Shown one piece after another: positions 34,003 through 52,130 of a stretch of 64,000 nucleotides of DNA. The DNA lies in IMG/VR virus record IMGVR_UViG_3300027712_001108, positions 32,001 through 96,000 of that record, one strand, 5' to 3'. Within the stretch, counting starts at the first letter, position 1. Every line of letters begins with the position of its first letter. The notes under the pieces were generated by a model that saw only the letters and a list, made by a program, of their open reading frames with translations, searched no databases and was not told the DNA's origin. The translations under genes and the position numbers were made by a program. The stretch comes from a virus.

Positions 34003-34077
34003 GCGTGTATGGTCCAGATGGATGGGCACGGGACTCTAAATCCTAGGAGGCAGGCTCAATACCTGTTATACGCACCA
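34003..34077 (+). tRNA. amber suppressor tRNA (anticodon CTA)
   Basis: acceptor GCGTGTA/TATACGC, loop CT-CTA-AA, T arm GCAGG/CCTGT, A73-CCA. Confidence 0.85.
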
Positions 34078-34110: not shown

Positions 34111-34719
34111 ATGTCGTAGATTGAAATTGCCTGTACCGAGTTAGTATTCCACTTTAATAAAAAACACTTAGAAGATCCCACTATTCCAATGTGGGTTGTT
34201 AAGACCAAAGGTGAGACGTATTACGTCCATCATGTCAGCAGTGACATGCCATGGTCTACAAAAGAAACTCCCAACAATAACAGTACCAAAGGCAGCATTA
34301 AGTTTAAACGGTGTCATCTTGTTATTGATGACAACAATGACGCTACTATCAAGCCGTTGACAATGAGCGATGCTATACGTCTCAAAAAGACAGAGCCCAA
34401 GAAAATACGACTGATTATGGATTATCGCAAACAGATAGACGAATTTGTTGAATACTGCGATGAACAAGAGATTTGGCATGATGGGGTTCACATACTGCCG
34501 GGTAGCTGTGGTTCGAGATTCTATGCAACCGATATCAAAGAAGATGACCTGCTGCTTACTCGCATGCGGTTCCCACCTAAGATGTTCCGTGAACTGATGC
34601 CCAATGAATATCTATATGCGTACTACGATAAAGTAGGACCTGATGTAGAACCACCAGATTACGACGACGATTACTACGATGACGACGAAGACGAAGATGA
34701 CGATGAGGACGCAGCCTAA
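34111..34719 (+). CDS. hypothetical protein with in-frame TAG at codon 3 (readthrough candidate)
   Basis: AAGGAG SD, ATG TCG TAG ATT...; frame continuous with ORF 34189..34719; acidic tail ending -AA. Confidence 0.75.
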
Positions 34720-35597: not shown

Positions 35598-36200
35598 GTG
35601 GTATTATACTATATGATAGACAGATACATACCCAAGTTTCTAGACATACTGTATGATCCCACTGTGCTACAAGCAGTGCGGTTAGAAGAAATCAGAGATG
35701 CATTTCACTCTAACCAAATAATCAGTAAGAATTGTGCTATTGCTGCATTTGACAGTTTGCCTACAGCAGACAGAAATGTGTTGTACATTGGCTCATGGAT
35801 TGGATTTTTGACGCACTATATCTGCGACAACTATCCTCACTGCACAGTAACAGAACTAGACATTGATGTAAGATGTAAACTCATTAGCCAACGGTTTAAT
35901 GAACGGTTTACAAACTATATCAACAGTTATACAAGTGATGTAGAGTGTTTTGGTTACCTCAATAACTATGACACTGTAATCAATCTAAGCTGTGAACATA
36001 TTAGCAGCAACTGGATTGACAAACTACAAAAAGGCACTACATTAGTGCTACAAACGAATAACTTCAAAATTCCAGAACATGTTAACACTTGTGAAACACT
36101 GGATGAAATGCGCGAAAAATATCAGTTGAGTGAAACATACTATGCGGAAGCAACTGTGTTAAATGCGTATACAAGATTTACACTGGCTGGCAAACGCTAA
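35598..36200 (+). CDS. class I SAM-dependent methyltransferase-like protein
   Basis: VLYIGSWIG, ELDID, INLSCEH. Confidence 0.7.
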   Translation: MVLYYMIDRYIPKFLDILYDPTVLQAVRLEEIRDAFHSNQIISKNCAIAAFDSLPTADRNVLYIGSWIGFLTHYICDNYPHCTVTELDIDVRCKLISQRFNERFTNYINSYTSDVECFGYLNNYDTVINLSCEHISSNWIDKLQKGTTLVLQTNNFKIPEHVNTCETLDEMREKYQLSETYYAEATVLNAYTRFTLAGKR

Positions 36201-36215
36201 TCAGTGATATTAATT

Positions 36216-36289
36216 GGCCGGGTGGCGGAATGGCTACGCAGTGGATTGCAAATCCATGTACGGGGGTTCGATTCCCTCCTCGGCCTCCA
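36216..36289 (+). tRNA. tRNA-Cys(GCA)
   Basis: cloverleaf, U73-CCA. Confidence 0.95.
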
Positions 36290-36390
36290 ATGTACAGTAG
36301 TTGTAGAGTTAAGCAGCGCACCCTACGTCTTTGGGATAGCGGGCGATGGGCACGACTACTGTGCGCTAAACACTGTGTCAAAAAAAGGCA

Positions 36391-36419
36391 TTGACGCGAT
36401 ATTAACAAGGTGCTAAGTT
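36391..36419 (+). promoter_or_regulatory. sigma70-type promoter of the tRNA operon
   Basis: TTGACG-17 nt-TAAGTT, A-tract upstream. Confidence 0.65.
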
Positions 36420-36437
36420 ACTTGAGTAGACAAAAAC

Positions 36438-36462
36438 GAAACGGTTTACATGCTCTTTGAAA
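36438..36462 (+). promoter_or_regulatory. boxA-like antitermination element
   Basis: TGCTCTTTGAAA; 21-nt exact repeat at 59282-59302. Confidence 0.7.
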
Positions 36463-36485
36463 CTGTTAGAGAATACAGATGAAAT

Positions 36486-36714
36486 AATTCTGTTTTCACA
36501 TGCACACAACGGCGTAGGCCACGCCAATGTATGGGATAACAGCTCAGCTAGTGATATAGCAGAGTTAGCGGTTCGAGTCCGCATAGTGTGCAGTTGTAAA
36601 CAGAAACAATTCTGTTTTCACATGTTATATAGGACGGTGGTTCGAATCCATCCTTGGGGTACGCCCCGAGTAGCTGTAGTGGTTAGAGCAAGTATAACAG
36701 TTGAAAACAGAATT
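36486..36714 (+). ncRNA. two tandem stem-closed modules carrying tRNA-like arms (second is a permuted tRNA mimic)
   Basis: repeat AATTCTGTTTTCACATG...CAGTTGWAAACAGAA enclosing TTCGA T-arms. Confidence 0.7.
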
Positions 36715-36889
36715 AGCGATTGTTGCTAGTCAGTTCCAACAACATCAAATGGTTGGACCTTGTAGATATAAGGTTACTGATAGCTAACAAAAAGTTAACT
36801 ATGATTATACACGGTAATAAAGTGTTCCATATCTTTTTTAACATCGTGTATTTATAAGGTCTGATATAGCATATCGCTATAAAAAGTTT

Positions 36890-36966
36890 TGCGGGGTAGA
36901 GCAGTCTGGTAGCTCGCTTGGCTCATAACCAAGAGGTCAGTGGTTCAAATCCACTCCCCGCAACCA
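36890..36966 (+). tRNA. tRNA-Met(CAT), initiator-like
   Basis: TGCGGGG acceptor, GAGCAG..GGTAGCTC D arm, CCA. Confidence 0.9.
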
Positions 36967-40984: not shown

Positions 40985-42463
40985 ATGGATATTGTAATTT
41001 GTATTTTGCCAAAGATAGAGCCTAGTGCTCCGTCTGTTGGTCCTTCTATTTTAAAAAGCCATTGTATTGCAGCAGGATTTTCCTGTAAGGTGGCGGATTT
41101 TAATATAGAATTGTACAACTCTATACCAACTGATATGCAAAGTATATGGCATAGCAACGATAGTGTATTTGATAATATGCACGAGTGGTTGCCGTTATAT
41201 GAACAGACATTTAAATCTACATTTGAACAGTTTGCAGATAGACTGATAGCAGAAAACTCAACATGGATAGGACTAAGTGTATTCAGTATCAAAAGCATGT
41301 TGCCTGCAATAGAGTTGATTAAACTAATCAAACATAAGAAACCAGAACAAAAAATTGTTGTTGGTGGCGCCGGTATCTATAACGACATAACTGCGCTAAC
41401 CGCAGCAGGTGCAGACCACTGGATAGTAGGCGACGCCGAAGAAAGCATTGTGGAATTGTTAAAAGGCAATATGTCTTTTAGAGGTATAGACAACACACAT
41501 CCTTACCAAATAGACGATTTGGATTCAGCTTCCATTCCCAACTATGACGACATAGATTTTAGCCAATATGCGAATTCTAATAACAGACAAGTATATATAA
41601 CAGCAAGTAGAGGCTGTATTAGAGACTGCACATTTTGTGATGTTGCATCAATGTGGCCTAAATTTAGATTTAGAAGCAGTGCAAATGTAGTAGACGAAAT
41701 CATACAACTGCGCCAACGATACGACATTAGAAATTTCTATTTTACAGACAGTCTTATAAATGGCGGTGTTAAAATATTCAGGGATATGTGCGCAGTATTG
41801 GCACAATACAGGCAAGAAACTGGCAGCGACTGGACATTGGGTAGCCAATTCATATGCAGATCTGCTGAACAGATGCCGCCAAACGATTATGATTTAATGA
41901 AAGCAGCGGGATTTTCTTGGGTTGCAATAGGTATAGAATCTGCCAGTCAAGCTGTGCGAGATCATATGAGAAAAGGATTTACCAATGAAGATATGTGGTA
42001 CACATTCGATCAGTTACATCGGGTTGGTATAAATCTAAACATACTGCTAATAGCTGGATACCTTACAGAAACCAAAGCTGATTTTGATGAAACTCTTGAC
42101 ATGATACATCGTTTAGCTAGGGAAGATTACCTAAGCAACATAGATGCCATTAATATATTTGAAGCAATCATTTTCAAAAAAACACCGTCGTATGATATAA
42201 GCAAGCAGCTTGGTGTTATAGATATAGACAATGACACATGGCATTTGCCAGACAATACCAACAATTTAAGAGTGAGAGTTGTTCGTACATTAAAAGCGTA
42301 TACACTGATAGAACGGTACAGAGGCGATGACAAAATGTTCTGGCTTGCCAAATCTGTAATACATTCTTGTACAACTCGTTACAAAGAACTAACCGGTCGC
42401 GATTTACCAACTGATATACTAAACTATGACGAATCGCTAGAATATAACCAATTGCCTTCGTAG
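40985..42463 (+). CDS. B12-binding radical SAM protein
   Basis: SRGCIRDCTFC, GIESAS; stop codon inside tRNA-Arg. Confidence 0.9.
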   Translation: MDIVICILPKIEPSAPSVGPSILKSHCIAAGFSCKVADFNIELYNSIPTDMQSIWHSNDSVFDNMHEWLPLYEQTFKSTFEQFADRLIAENSTWIGLSVFSIKSMLPAIELIKLIKHKKPEQKIVVGGAGIYNDITALTAAGADHWIVGDAEESIVELLKGNMSFRGIDNTHPYQIDDLDSASIPNYDDIDFSQYANSNNRQVYITASRGCIRDCTFCDVASMWPKFRFRSSANVVDEIIQLRQRYDIRNFYFTDSLINGGVKIFRDMCAVLAQYRQETGSDWTLGSQFICRSAEQMPPNDYDLMKAAGFSWVAIGIESASQAVRDHMRKGFTNEDMWYTFDQLHRVGINLNILLIAGYLTETKADFDETLDMIHRLAREDYLSNIDAINIFEAIIFKKTPSYDISKQLGVIDIDNDTWHLPDNTNNLRVRVVRTLKAYTLIERYRGDDKMFWLAKSVIHSCTTRYKELTGRDLPTDILNYDESLEYNQLPS

Positions 42464-42593: not shown

Positions 42594-42863
42594 ATGAAAA
42601 CGTTAGAAGAGAAAGAAGCATTTTATGCAAAATGCGCAGAGATACTAAACATACCGCATGTGTTTCATGTTCCAGTTCGTAGAAAAACACGATGGAACAC
42701 ACGCTTCTTAGGCAACGGTAGATACCCAGGCTTTGGACTAGTTCAATGCTATGGCTGTGTGGTACGAGTTGTTAGTAAACGTGGAACACGAATATTCAAA
42801 GACTATGATGAAGTCTACGAGTATTTGACCACAGTAGTACACGCATCAGCAACGGTAATTTGA
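42594..42863 (+). CDS. hypothetical protein
   Basis: GAGG SD, 89 aa. Confidence 0.65.
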   Translation: MKTLEEKEAFYAKCAEILNIPHVFHVPVRRKTRWNTRFLGNGRYPGFGLVQCYGCVVRVVSKRGTRIFKDYDEVYEYLTTVVHASATVI

Positions 42864-44589: not shown

Positions 44590-44769
44590 ATGAAACGTAA
44601 ACAGCTAAAAGCGCCTAAACCGCGCAATCCCATTGTTAATATTGTCATGTTCCGCAGCGGTGCCGGTGTACATGACAAGCCCAACAAAGCCAAACGAGCA
44701 GCTAACAAAGTTGCTATGAAAAAGCAGGTCAGGGACAGTTTTGACCCTGACCGCAGTTTTGCAGCATGA
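44590..44769 (+). CDS. small basic protein (59 aa), ArfA/BrfA-like candidate
   Basis: AAGGAG SD; PRNPIV...GAGVH; hairpin in the 3' end of the CDS; C-terminal FAA. Confidence 0.6.
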   Translation: MKRKQLKAPKPRNPIVNIVMFRSGAGVHDKPNKAKRAANKVAMKKQVRDSFDPDRSFAA

Positions 44770-45851
44770 CAGATACTAAACCATTTTGTTCTGCACCATG
44801 GACAAGTATTCAACATGGCTCTGTACTTCATCAAGGTGGTACATGCCCATGCTGCGAGTGGAATGGTAAAATATACAAAGGCGGTATTAAACAGTATTTG
44901 GAATCAGACTGGCTGCGCAGTGTTAAAGAAACCATGCAATCATATGACATGGATATAATCAATTCAACTTGTAAATCTTGTTTAGAAGTCGAAAAGCTAA
45001 ACATGCGGTCTAAGAGAAATCTAATAGACAACTGGATCGAATCTACCACTCTTGAATTTGACAAAATTGGATTAGTGGATTATCGGGCTAGCAATTTATG
45101 CAATTTAAAATGCAGAATGTGTTTTCCCAGTAACAGTTCTATGATTGCCAAAGAGATGAATATAGACATAGATAACAGCAACAATTTCGTTGATGATATT
45201 TACGAATATGATTTAAAAGATGTTGCTATTGTTAATATCGTAGGCGGCGAACCCAGTATAGATGATAAAGTTTTTAAGTTCCTAGATTGGTTAATTCTAA
45301 ACAACTGGCATGAACAAATGGAGTTGACTATTACAACTAATGCAACAAATACCAATAAAAACTGGATTGATCGCATTTCGAAATTTAAAAGATTAAATGT
45401 TATAATAAGTGTAGATGGTATAGGTGATGTATATGAATATATTAGAACAAATGCCAAATGGGACAGTGTAAGTAAAAACATATCCGTATACGAATCTATG
45501 CCAAATATTAGTGTAGCTTTTCAAATAACAGGCAGTATGTATAATATACCTGTAATAGAAAAATGGTTACCATGGTTTTTAGATAAGGAATATGCAAACA
45601 TATATCCGGTAGAAAGCCAACTGCATTTGACATTGGCGGCATTATCACCGGATATTAAACAAGAGAAAATTGCGTATTTAAAAACCATAAACTCTCATAT
45701 GGCAGCATCTACTATACAGATGTTAGAAAATGCAACATATGACAAGGCGGTACATTGCGCATTCGTTGATGATACTAATAAGTTAGACGGCATACGACAA
45801 ACAGACATTACCAGTATTGATACTGTTTTCGAACGAATACTGCGCCCGTAG
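44766..45851 (+). CDS. radical SAM protein with Twitch-like domain
   Basis: CNLKCRMC, GGEP; stop codon inside tRNA-Lys. Confidence 0.9.
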   Translation: MTDTKPFCSAPWTSIQHGSVLHQGGTCPCCEWNGKIYKGGIKQYLESDWLRSVKETMQSYDMDIINSTCKSCLEVEKLNMRSKRNLIDNWIESTTLEFDKIGLVDYRASNLCNLKCRMCFPSNSSMIAKEMNIDIDNSNNFVDDIYEYDLKDVAIVNIVGGEPSIDDKVFKFLDWLILNNWHEQMELTITTNATNTNKNWIDRISKFKRLNVIISVDGIGDVYEYIRTNAKWDSVSKNISVYESMPNISVAFQITGSMYNIPVIEKWLPWFLDKEYANIYPVESQLHLTLAALSPDIKQEKIAYLKTINSHMAASTIQMLENATYDKAVHCAFVDDTNKLDGIRQTDITSIDTVFERILRP

Positions 45852-51614: not shown

Positions 51615-52130
51615 ATGAAATACTTGGCATTTTTAGACATAGATGGTGTTTTTACATCTGCTCGTGTACAATATGCGTCTGCAAACTCCAATGATATGTG
51701 GAACAAATTCGACCCCACTGCAATCGAGTTTATGAACAAGTTGCACGACAGAGTCAAGGATCTGCATTTTGTTTTGATTTCAACATGGAAAGAACACTTG
51801 CGCGAAGCTGATGAACAAACTGCGCATTGGATAATTGCAGCTTTTCGTAATGCAGGATTTCGCGGCGAATTTGCATCGCCGTGGAAGACCAATCCTGACA
51901 ACTTTGCTCGCTTTTATGAGAAAGGTATGACTCGCGCCAATGAGATCAAAGAATATCTAGAAGTGTATGCACCAAGTAATCAAGACTATATCATCTTTGA
52001 TGACAACGACTACGGGTTCGAAACTGTACTTGGTAAGAATCGCTGGGTGCATACCGACGGAAACAATGGTATCCTGTTGAAACACATGTACAATGCCATG
52101 AGCATTGTAGGTGAATGGGATACAAAATAA
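51615..52130 (+). CDS. HAD-like domain protein
   Basis: FLDIDGV, ISTWK, IFDD. Confidence 0.75.
   Translation: MKYLAFLDIDGVFTSARVQYASANSNDMWNKFDPTAIEFMNKLHDRVKDLHFVLISTWKEHLREADEQTAHWIIAAFRNAGFRGEFASPWKTNPDNFARFYEKGMTRANEIKEYLEVYAPSNQDYIIFDDNDYGFETVLGKNRWVHTDGNNGILLKHMYNAMSIVGEWDTK

What the first reader, a model, noticed from the sequence alone, without database searches (positions are those of the whole stretch)
36608..36714. Circularly permuted tRNA mimic with a sealed acceptor end
Seen in order: variable loop AGGAC, T arm GGTGG-TTCGAAT-CCATC, acceptor 3' strand CTTGGGG, TACG tetraloop, acceptor 5' strand CCCCGAG, TA, D arm GCT...TGG...AGC. The anticodon stem is replaced by a long closing helix. 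The tRNA elbow is intact, but there is no anticodon and no CCA. Inference: an elbow decoy for tRNA-binding or tRNA-cleaving proteins, or a processing signal.
Basis: partly seen in the sequence, partly recalled or inferred. Interest (0 to 1): 0.82.

Follow-up and report, generated by a model that had tools for sequence, protein, structure and literature searches.

The report
Phage tRNA mimic on carrier helix
Inside the tRNA gene island of a giant freshwater phage lies a ~107-base RNA gene that copies the top half of a tRNA, as bacterial YrlA "Y RNAs" do; it sits on a conserved double-stranded stalk that related phages use to display dozens of other small RNAs, and no Ro60-type partner gene is in the DNA held.

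Summary
Positions 36608-36714 (+) fold (z -5.6) into a 13-bp and an 8-bp closing stalk, a variable loop, a T arm, a 7-bp acceptor-like hairpin capped by UACG, U8-A9 and a D arm.

This layout is already described for bacterial and phage YrlA Y RNAs ("circularly permuted tRNAs with closed acceptor stems"; crystal structure 6CU1). Rfam YrlA matches full length, but at 27 bits against a cut-off of 69.

Fourteen such elements from three contexts covary strongly. All 7 acceptor pairs, 3 of 5 T-stem pairs and the 15:48 Levitt pair show changes on both sides.

The new parts are these:
- The stalk is a conserved carrier (UUCUGUUUUCA, then CA, ... then GY, then UGAAAACAGAA). It occurs in 42 distinct units from about 40 phage contigs, with at least 35 different interiors, and often lies 3-8 nt before a tRNA.
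- The YrlA Ro60-binding motif is absent.
- No TROVE or DUF2828 Ro60-like gene is in the 158 kb held (about 30% of the genome), nor in two complete carrier-bearing genomes.
- The closest orthologue does lie 2.7 kb upstream of a DUF2828 Ro60 homologue.

Expression, processing and the partner are unproven. Earlier notes of this scan report analogous carrier RNAs on other phage DNA. My verdict is a new variant of a known kind.

The parts
36608..36620 (+). carrier outer helix, 5' strand AAUUCUGUUUUCA
   Evidence: pairs with 36702-36714 in the MFE fold; same 13-17 nt in 42 distinct units on other phage contigs
36621..36622 (+). 5' half of the tandem mismatch (CA, facing GU 36700-01: C.U and A.G)
   Evidence: unpaired in the fold; CA/GU or CA/GC in 39 of 42 units, although the search pattern fixed most of this
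36623..36630 (+). inner helix 5' strand UGUUAUAU, in the place of the anticodon-stem 3' strand
   Evidence: covaries among orthologues (columns 20/99, 21/98, 24/95, 25/94 of A1)
36631..36635 (+). variable loop AGGAC (G46, C48)
   Evidence: C48 can form the Levitt pair with G15; the 15:48 pair covaries, CG 9 and UA 4 of 14
36636..36652 (+). T arm GGUGG-UUCGAAU-CCAUC
   Evidence: the T stem is 100% paired in 14 homologues and 3 of 5 pairs change on both sides
36653..36670 (+). sealed acceptor hairpin CUUGGGG-UACG-CCCCGAG (7 bp, tetraloop)
   Evidence: 7 of 7 pairs show changes on both sides across 14 homologues; the loop varies from 4 to 8 nt with no CCA
36671..36689 (+). U8-A9 and D arm GCUG-UAGUGGUUA-GAGC (G18 G19 present; G13.G22 mismatch; extra U before A14)
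36692..36699 (+). inner helix 3' strand GUAUAACA
36700..36714 (+). 3' half of the mismatch (GU) and carrier outer helix 3' strand UGAAAACAGAAUU
36486..36605 (+). unit 1: second RNA on the same carrier (identical 17-nt 5' strand; 3' strand CAGUUGUAAACAGAA), with a different cargo that includes a T arm at 36568-36582
   Evidence: (z -4.3)
36445..36474 (+). weak sigma-70-like promoter match (TTTACA-18-GAGAAT) just upstream of unit 1
   Evidence: not above the shuffle expectation, so a lead only; similar TTGACA...ACAGAAG flanks precede carriers elsewhere

Best explanation
This is a gene for a small non-coding RNA of the YrlA (bacterial Y RNA) design, a circularly permuted tRNA top half. The T arm, the 7-bp acceptor-like hairpin closed by UACG, U8-A9 and the D arm can form a tRNA elbow. 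The RNA's own 5' and 3' ends form a 13-bp and an 8-bp stalk where the anticodon stem would be. The stalk is a shared carrier. Its outer 13 bp and a tandem C.U/A.G mismatch are conserved in sequence across a lineage of freshwater phages, which use it in tRNA islands to hold at least 35 different interiors, often directly before a tRNA gene. Most likely working: the RNA is transcribed with or beside the tRNA operon and is freed by tRNA-processing nucleases (RNase P at the next tRNA, perhaps RNase III or another enzyme in the stalk). It persists as an L-shaped RNA that can be neither charged nor decoded. It then offers a tRNA elbow to proteins that read elbows, while the sequence-conserved stalk is the handle for a second, still unknown factor. 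That makes it an adaptor or decoy built like a Ro60-YrlA particle. Shown here: the fold, homologues, covariation, modularity and the RNA strand. Inferred: transcription, processing, the partners and the biological role.
For: - Fold: z -5.6. Rfam YrlA aligns over model positions 1-114 (27.1 bits, E 7.6e-5 in the genome).
- Published description: YrlA RNAs are called circularly permuted tRNAs with closed acceptor stems, with an L-shaped crystal structure; they are modified by TruB and DusA, and the 7-bp-stem version is cut by RNase P.
- Covariation: 14 elements of this layout from Rsr-linked, DUF2828-linked and stalk-type contexts are 92% paired, against 52% or less when the partners are slid. 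The covariation score is 0.73 against 0.20, with 0 of 500 shuffles as high. All 7 acceptor pairs are compensatory, and the Levitt pair is CG 9, UA 4.
- Orthologues on the same stalk occur in L136, L223/L244/L251 and L242/L243. Their loop indels of 1-2 nt exclude coding.
- Carrier: 42 distinct units with 35 distinct inner helices. The non-Watson-Crick changes in the outer helix are 12 G.U wobbles on the + strand, 0 A.C and 3 U.U, so selection acts on the + strand RNA, the strand of the tRNAs.
- 17 of 44 units end 3-8 nt before a tRNA.
- The carrier was absent from 120 unrelated phage tRNA-array loci under the relaxed test (the strict regex had found one unit, in L053). It is essentially absent from 185,579 prokaryotic genomes.
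Against: - No expression or end data. The only RNA library holding this DNA gives contigs that stop before the element.
- No Ro60-type gene (TROVE, DUF2828/DUF7788, or my own profile) and no RtcB or RNase III in the 158 kb held.
- The YrlA 5' motif GNCGAAN0-1G is absent, and the Rfam score is far below the gathering cut-off.
- The D arm deviates (G13.G22, displaced A14).
- The conservation of the stalk is partly built into my searches, which used its sequence as the probe.
- A sequence-identical inverted repeat near homing-endonuclease genes could also be kept at the DNA level.
Confidence: 0.5

Rival explanations
1. It is a true Y RNA, the partner of a phage Ro60-like (DUF2828-vWA) ring protein whose gene lies in the roughly 70% of this genome that is not held. 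The stalk or its flank is the Ro60-like binding site, and the tRNA-like head recruits an effector, as in Rsr-YrlA-PNPase.
For: The closest orthologue (L251:2180-2286; same stalk, same cargo, same place after tRNA-Cys) lies 2.7 kb upstream of a DUF2828 gene on the same strand, and two stalk hairpins follow that gene. DUF2828/DUF7788 proteins are full-length homologues of phage TROVE-vWA Rsr: hhalign probability 96.5%, E 1e-9, 371 columns, shared VDVSGSM site. Ten of 39 carrier-bearing records encode one, and in 5 of 6 loci a carrier lies 240-1100 nt downstream on the same strand. Sealed-acceptor mimics also occur in DUF2828 phages behind a CAGCAA motif (L033, L060).
Against: Two complete carrier-bearing genomes (518 kb and 195 kb) have neither TROVE nor DUF7788. 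Of 80 DUF2828 loci, only the 80%-or-more identity branch has this stalk (6 of 9, against 0 of 71). A different motif (UUUAGGNUNG-GUUCAGCAA) recurs beside DUF2828 in both branches and is absent from this genome. The co-occurrence may therefore only reflect a shared phage lineage and the crowding of tRNA islands.
Confidence: 0.15
2. It is only a processing and stability cassette. The 23-bp stalk is an RNase III-type (or other nuclease) site that punctuates the long tRNA-island transcript or protects its 5' end. The interior, here a tRNA top half, has no role in trans or merely attracts RNase P and tRNA chaperones to the precursor.
For: The helix has the length of an RNase III substrate, with an internal mismatch like phage T7 and rRNA processing stalks (established knowledge). 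Units abut tRNA 5' ends. The interiors are extremely diverse, and 19 of 44 lack any T-loop. Earlier notes of this scan reached this reading for analogous stalks.
Against: RNase III needs little sequence, yet the outer 13 bp are kept identical across different phages. The cargo itself is conserved, with covariation and intact tertiary-contact nucleotides across orthologues, which a mere spacer would not need. No RNase III gene is in the phage DNA held, so a host enzyme would have to act.
Confidence: 0.2
3. It is a relic or a DNA-level element: either two decayed neighbouring tRNA genes (T arm of one, D arm of the next), or an inverted-repeat cassette spread by homing endonucleases, with the RNA fold incidental.
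For: Tandem tRNAs are a known false positive for YrlA models, and L091 is such a case. GIY-YIG SegE-like homing endonuclease genes lie near carriers in 14 of 33 loci. A relative in run X9 has unit 1 joined directly to a tRNA without unit 2, so the cassettes shuffle.
Against: All helices are perfect or compensated, and there is no flanking tRNA half. Compensatory changes run across contigs. Wobble pairs occur only on the + strand. An acceptor strand starting C1 is atypical for bacterial tRNAs. Copies within one genome carry different interiors and show no target duplications.
Confidence: 0.08
4. It is a circularly permuted tRNA gene that matures into a working tRNA, as in Cyanidioschyzon merolae: the ends are joined and the acceptor loop is opened.
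For: Gene order: 3' half, linker, 5' half. The 7-bp acceptor stem could be opened by RNase P, as in M. smegmatis YrlA.
Against: No anticodon-loop sequence and no bulge-helix-bulge motif; the junction is a 2x2 mismatch inside a 21-bp helix. The same helix closes non-tRNA interiors. The phage already has tRNAs for all 20 amino acids. Bacteria lack the splicing endonuclease (established knowledge).
Confidence: 0.02

Closest known systems
YrlA Y RNAs of bacteria and mycobacteriophages (Rfam RF02553; Chen et al. 2014, PMC4201824; structure 6CU1, Wang et al. 2018, doi 10.1101/312249)
   Same: Same topology: terminal stalk, variable loop, T arm, closed acceptor stem-loop, U8-A9, D arm. Same elbow nucleotides and covarying Levitt pair. 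Modular build of a conserved stem plus an effector head. Often tandem with a second, shorter RNA (yrlB-yrlA; here unit 1 and unit 2). Some lie next to tRNA genes.
   Different: No GNCGAAN0-1G motif. No Rsr within 4 kb or anywhere in the 158 kb held. Scores 27 bits against the cut-off of 69. The T and D stems are not the near-invariant YrlA sequences. The stalk is a different, longer, sequence-conserved helix shared with many unrelated interiors.
Mycobacterium smegmatis YrlA (7-bp acceptor stem)
   Same: A 7-bp acceptor-like stem, which Chen et al. name as the feature that lets RNase P cut it and CCA be added in vivo.
   Different: Here the loop is a tight UACG tetraloop, and orthologue loops carry no CCA. 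Cleavage is untested.
Handle RNAs beside phage DUF2828 (Ro60-like) genes, known to me only from this scan's earlier notes and
   Same: Phage tRNA-island RNAs with one conserved handle and swappable interiors, some of them permuted tRNA mimics (L033, L060).
   Different: That handle is a short clamp helix plus (A/U)CAGCAA. This one is a 13-bp UUCUGUUUUCA helix plus a tandem mismatch, and it is found only in one lineage.
Phage T4 stable RNAs rnaC and rnaD (species 1 and 2) of the T4 tRNA cluster (my own knowledge, not tested)
   Same: Small stable non-tRNA RNAs encoded among phage tRNA genes, with tRNA-like parts and unknown function.
   Different: No sequence or Rfam relation was found. They have a different topology.
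RNase III processing stalks (rRNA operons, T7 early sites) and the intervening segment of two-piece tmRNA genes (my own knowledge)
   Same: Long 5'/3' helix with an internal mismatch that brackets a functional RNA within a polycistronic precursor.
   Different: Those helices are not sequence-identical between unrelated cargos. Cleavage here is not shown.
Permuted tRNA genes of Cyanidioschyzon merolae (my own knowledge)
   Same: The 3' half is encoded before the 5' half, joined through the acceptor ends.
   Different: Those mature into real tRNAs through a bulge-helix-bulge motif. Here there is no anticodon loop and no such motif.

Membership tests
YrlA (RF02553) | tRNA-like domain in permuted order: T arm, closed acceptor stem-loop, D arm, closed by a terminal stem | tested here: met
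   covariation
YrlA (RF02553) | Tertiary-contact nucleotides of the elbow (T-loop UUCRANY, G18 G19, U8, 15:48 Levitt pair) | tested here: met
   UUCGAAU, GG, U8 and G15/C48 are present; A14 is displaced by one extra U and 13:22 is G.G
YrlA (RF02553) | Score at or above the Rfam gathering threshold (69 bits) | tested here: not met
   27.1 bits; the phage relatives, including the Rsr-linked ones, score 34-47 bits
YrlA (RF02553) | GNCGAAN0-1G motif near the 5' end (proposed Rsr contact) | tested here: not met
   The 5' strand is AAUUCUGUUUUCACAUGUUAUAU; the motif is defined
YrlA (RF02553) | Encoded within 4 kb of a Ro60/Rsr (TROVE) gene on the same strand | tested here: not met
   No TROVE in the 158-kb record or in 37 carrier-bearing records. 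The record is only about 30% complete, so absence from the whole phage is not shown. The orthologue in L251 is 2.7 kb from a divergent Ro60 homologue, DUF2828.
YrlA (RF02553) | Bound by Rsr; modified by TruB and DusA | not testable with these tools
   needs biochemistry
Canonical or permuted tRNA gene | Anticodon stem-loop with a 7-nt loop; free or processable acceptor end with CCA | tested here: not met
UUCUGUUUUCA carrier-stalk RNAs (provisional family defined here) | 13-bp outer helix of that sequence, tandem CA/GY mismatch, covarying inner helix, variable interior, + strand of a phage tRNA island | tested here: met
RNase III processing stalk | Cleavage by RNase III within a helix of about 20 bp or more | not testable with these tools
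   The helix length fits; there are no end data

The most novel reading that the evidence does not exclude
The UUCUGUUUUCA stalk marks an undescribed scaffold-RNA family of freshwater phages that does not depend on Ro60. One sequence-conserved helix with a tandem mismatch, read by its own still unknown protein or nuclease, displays interchangeable heads. These include a YrlA-type tRNA top half, heads with one to three T arms and non-tRNA folds. It would be a phage toolkit for engaging or diverting host tRNA-handling machinery.
Probability: 0.35. Interest if true: 0.8.

Novelty: new variant of a known kind. Interest (0 to 1): 0.6.

Why it matters
YrlA-type tRNA mimics have so far been defined by their linkage to Ro60, and what their tRNA-like head binds is still unknown. 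Here the same head appears without the Ro60-binding motif, on a different and widely shared stalk, in phages of which at least two complete genomes lack any Ro60 homologue.

If real, the tRNA-elbow head would be a portable module that phages graft onto different handles. Phage tRNA islands would then hold families of display RNAs as well as tRNAs. That gives a concrete way to find the elbow-binding effector, by pull-down with two different handles carrying one head. It also bears on the long-open question of the small stable RNAs in phage tRNA clusters.

Tried and rejected
- RNA evidence: of 21 runs, one lake metatranscriptome (X9) and X16 were laid. Their contigs cover 36150-36605, leave 36618-36869 uncovered and cover from about 36870 on. 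Contigs cannot show transcription or ends, so there is no verdict.
- Cultured phages: blastn of both units and of a relative against 50,697 INPHARED records gave no match.
- Prokaryotic genomes: two pattern scans gave one true unit, on a 743-bp contig binned with an Emticicia MAG, and one chance match in Sutterella.
- Other Rfam families in 36300-36890: only chance-level hits (RprA on the minus strand, microRNAs, snoRNAs). The other full-length YrlA hits in the genome (14-15 bits) overlap adjacent tRNAs and are the known tandem-tRNA artefact.
- Promoters and terminators: 2 promoter-like sites against 1.4 expected and no terminator, so this is not evidence.
- Neighbouring ORFs 34189-34719, 35598-36200, 42594-42860 and others: no Pfam or PHROG family.
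- ORF 36457-36729 (90 aa, TTG start) spanning both units: rejected as coding, because orthologues differ by 1-2-nt indels and by paired substitutions.
- AlphaFold model of the DUF2828 protein from 6 sequences: pLDDT 46, unusable, so no fold search was run. phmmer and profile searches against PDB found only weak vWA hits. Profile-profile comparison settled the homology instead.
- DUF2828 as the stalk's partner: considered, but the wider DUF2828 family carries a different motif.

Full report
**Setting.** The window is bases 32001-96000 of a 157.9-kb IMG/VR virus record judged about 30% complete. It is a fragment of a very large freshwater phage (runs). It carries 31 tRNA genes on the + strand, covering all 20 amino acids, and a GOLLD RNA.

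**Observation.** Folded alone, it gives the same structure as the minimum-energy and the centroid fold:
- a 13-bp outer helix (AAUUCUGUUUUCA / UGAAAACAGAAUU);
- a 2x2 mismatch (CA / GU);
- an 8-bp inner helix;
- AGGAC;
- the T arm;
- a 7-bp hairpin closed by UACG;
- UA;
- the D arm.

The energy is -42.4 kcal/mol against -22.5 +/- 3.5 for shuffles (z -5.6). ARAGORN finds no tRNA here. The D arm has a G13.G22 mismatch and one extra U before A14. The other elbow nucleotides are in place: UUCGAAU, G18 G19, U8, G46 and C48.

**What it resembles.** At permissive thresholds, only Rfam YrlA (RF02553) matches end to end (model positions 1-114, 27.1 bits, gathering score 69). Chen et al. 2014 and Wang et al. 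2018 describe YrlA as a Y RNA whose effector module is a tRNA-like domain. [quoted passage not shown] The L-shaped crystal structure lacks a free CCA. The architecture is therefore known. By the authors' own criteria, membership also needs a GNCGAAN0-1G motif near the 5' end and a Ro60/Rsr gene within 4 kb on the same strand. Neither is present here.

**Homologues of the tRNA-like head.** A structural pattern scan of IMG/VR, filtered for a self-complementary acceptor, found the same layout in other phages. All hit YrlA at 34-47 bits. They fall into three contexts:
- Classical: a TROVE gene next door (L050, L078, L028).
- In tRNA arrays of phages without TROVE. Some of these encode a DUF2828/DUF7788 protein (L033, L060) and carry a (A/U)CAGCAA motif at their 5' side.
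- Mounted on the same stalk as the window's element (L136, L223 = L244 = L251, L242, L243).

On an alignment of 14 such cores:
- 92% of cells pair, against 52% or less with slid partners.
- All seven acceptor pairs and three of five T-stem pairs change on both sides.
- The tertiary 15:48 pair switches between G:C (9) and A:U (4). The window's own row is counted as unpaired at the aligned columns, because an extra U shifts A14 and G15; read one base on, it gives G15:C48.
- No shuffle of 500 reaches the observed covariation.

The sealing loop varies from 4 to 8 nt and never holds CCA. This is a selected RNA structure, not debris. One- and two-base indels among the orthologues also rule out the 90-codon ORF that spans it.

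**The stalk is a shared carrier.** Directly upstream, 36486-36605 is a second structured unit (z -4.3). It has the identical 17-nt 5' strand and a near-identical 3' strand, but a different interior with its own T arm. Searching IMG/VR with the 5' strand gave 42 distinct units, with 35 different inner helices, on about 40 contigs of 4-518 kb. The interiors range from permuted tRNA heads, through one to three T-arm hairpins, to folds with no tRNA feature.

My probe fixed most of the outer-helix sequence, so its invariance is partly by construction. Three features are not by construction:
- The matching 3' strand is present at 67-214 nt.
- The inner helix covaries.
- All 12 transition-type departures in the outer helix are G.U wobbles on the + strand and none is A.C. 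This points to selection on the + strand RNA.

Seventeen of 44 units end 3-8 nt before a canonical tRNA, so RNase P would set their 3' ends. Most units are preceded by a half-site, (G)AAACAGAAG, that can pair with the 5' strand. The stalk was absent from 120 unrelated phage tRNA-array loci under the relaxed stalk test, although the strict regex had found one unit in L053. It is also absent from cultured phages and, bar one 743-bp contig, from 185,579 prokaryotic genomes.

**Partner search.** TROVE is absent from all 37 carrier-bearing records, four of them complete. A gene-cluster comparison of the loci turned up a 476-aa DUF2828+DUF7788 protein. Profile-profile comparison shows it to be a full-length homologue of phage TROVE-vWA Rsr (probability 96.5%, E 1e-9, 371 columns, shared MIDAS motif). 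This confirms a lead from earlier notes of this scan.

Ten of 39 carrier-bearing records encode this protein, and stalk units sit 240-1100 nt after the gene in five of six loci. In L251 the orthologue of the finding lies between tRNA-Cys and tRNA-Gln, 2.7 kb upstream of that gene on the same strand.

Four results count against this protein as the stalk's partner:
- Two complete carrier-bearing genomes lack it.
- Only the 80%-or-more identity branch of 80 DUF2828 loci has the stalk: 6 of 9, against 0 of 71.
- A different motif, UUUAGGNUNG-GUUCAGCAA, recurs beside DUF2828 in both branches and is absent from this genome.
- The 158 kb held has no match to DUF2828, DUF7788, my own profile, RtcB or RNase III.

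I therefore treat the Ro60-like link as a live rival, not as the explanation.

**Mechanism.** Best supported: a stable, uncharged, L-shaped RNA released from the tRNA-island transcript. Its head presents a tRNA elbow and its conserved stalk is a second recognition surface, so it would be an adaptor or decoy built like a Y RNA. The fold, the selection, the modularity and the strand are shown. Transcription, cleavage sites and partners are inferred. The only RNA library with this DNA gave contigs that say nothing on these points. That laying did show a relative in which unit 1 runs straight into a tRNA without unit 2, so the cassettes are exchanged.

The rivals are a pure processing stalk, a bona fide DUF2828 Y RNA, a relic or DNA-level repeat, and a permuted tRNA gene. 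They are weighed in their own sections.

**Novelty.** The head is a known kind. The stalk family and the absence of Ro60 do not appear in Rfam or in the papers I could search. Earlier notes of this scan describe analogous, though sequence-different, carrier families in other phage genomes.

Noticed in passing
window 36486-36605: Second RNA on the same carrier stalk, directly abutting the finding. Its interior has a hairpin GGCGU-AGGCC-ACGCC, a D-arm-like AGCUCAGCU stretch and a T arm (36568-36582) just before the inner helix's 3' strand. In a relative (run X9) this unit is followed directly by a tRNA instead of unit 2.
   Followed up: partly
window 60012-60465: GOLLD RNA (217 bits) with a tRNA-Arg(TCT) gene embedded at 60077-60147.
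   Followed up: no
window 34003-34074: A tRNA called by Rfam (41 bits) but not by ARAGORN. Another first-stage note reads it as an amber suppressor.
   Followed up: no
window 51615-52130: The ORF carries the HAD domain of 'Swiss Army Knife' RNA-repair proteins (HAD_SAK_2, E 1.6e-15), inside the tRNA island. Three radical-SAM genes also lie between tRNAs: 40985-42463 (with a B12-binding domain), 44766-45851 and 56809-57978 (with SPASM).
   Followed up: no
L251:5001-6428 and flanks (also L252-L330): DUF2828+DUF7788 proteins are full-length TROVE-vWA (Ro60) homologues (hhalign 96.5%). Beside them a motif UUUAGGNUNG-GUUCAGCAA recurs, often right after a tRNA 3' end, and a variant lies about 90 nt before the gene's start codon.
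   Followed up: partly
flanks of carrier units, e.g. L231:1375-1404, L218, L183; window 36470-36487: Most carriers are preceded by a half-site (G)AAACAGAAG that can pair with the carrier's 5' strand UUCUGUUU. A subset also has TTGACAATTTAGAA further upstream. This could be an alternative pairing or a promoter.
   Followed up: no
L150:3706-4362 and homologues in 14 of 33 carrier loci: GIY-YIG (SegE-like) homing endonuclease genes sit between carrier units and tRNAs.
   Followed up: partly
L334 (743-bp contig binned in an Emticicia MAG): It holds a true carrier unit followed by tRNA-Met. It is probably a phage contig, and only a weak hint at a Bacteroidota host.
   Followed up: no
L060:4214-4281: Sub-threshold match to the HDV-like ribozyme family of F. 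prausnitzii (38.4 bits, cut-off 44) inside a phage tRNA array.
   Followed up: no
L009:11300-11430: A sealed-acceptor tRNA mimic (CACG loop) on a different, G+C-rich closing helix, in a phage contig without TROVE or DUF7788. This may be a fourth kind of handle.
   Followed up: partly
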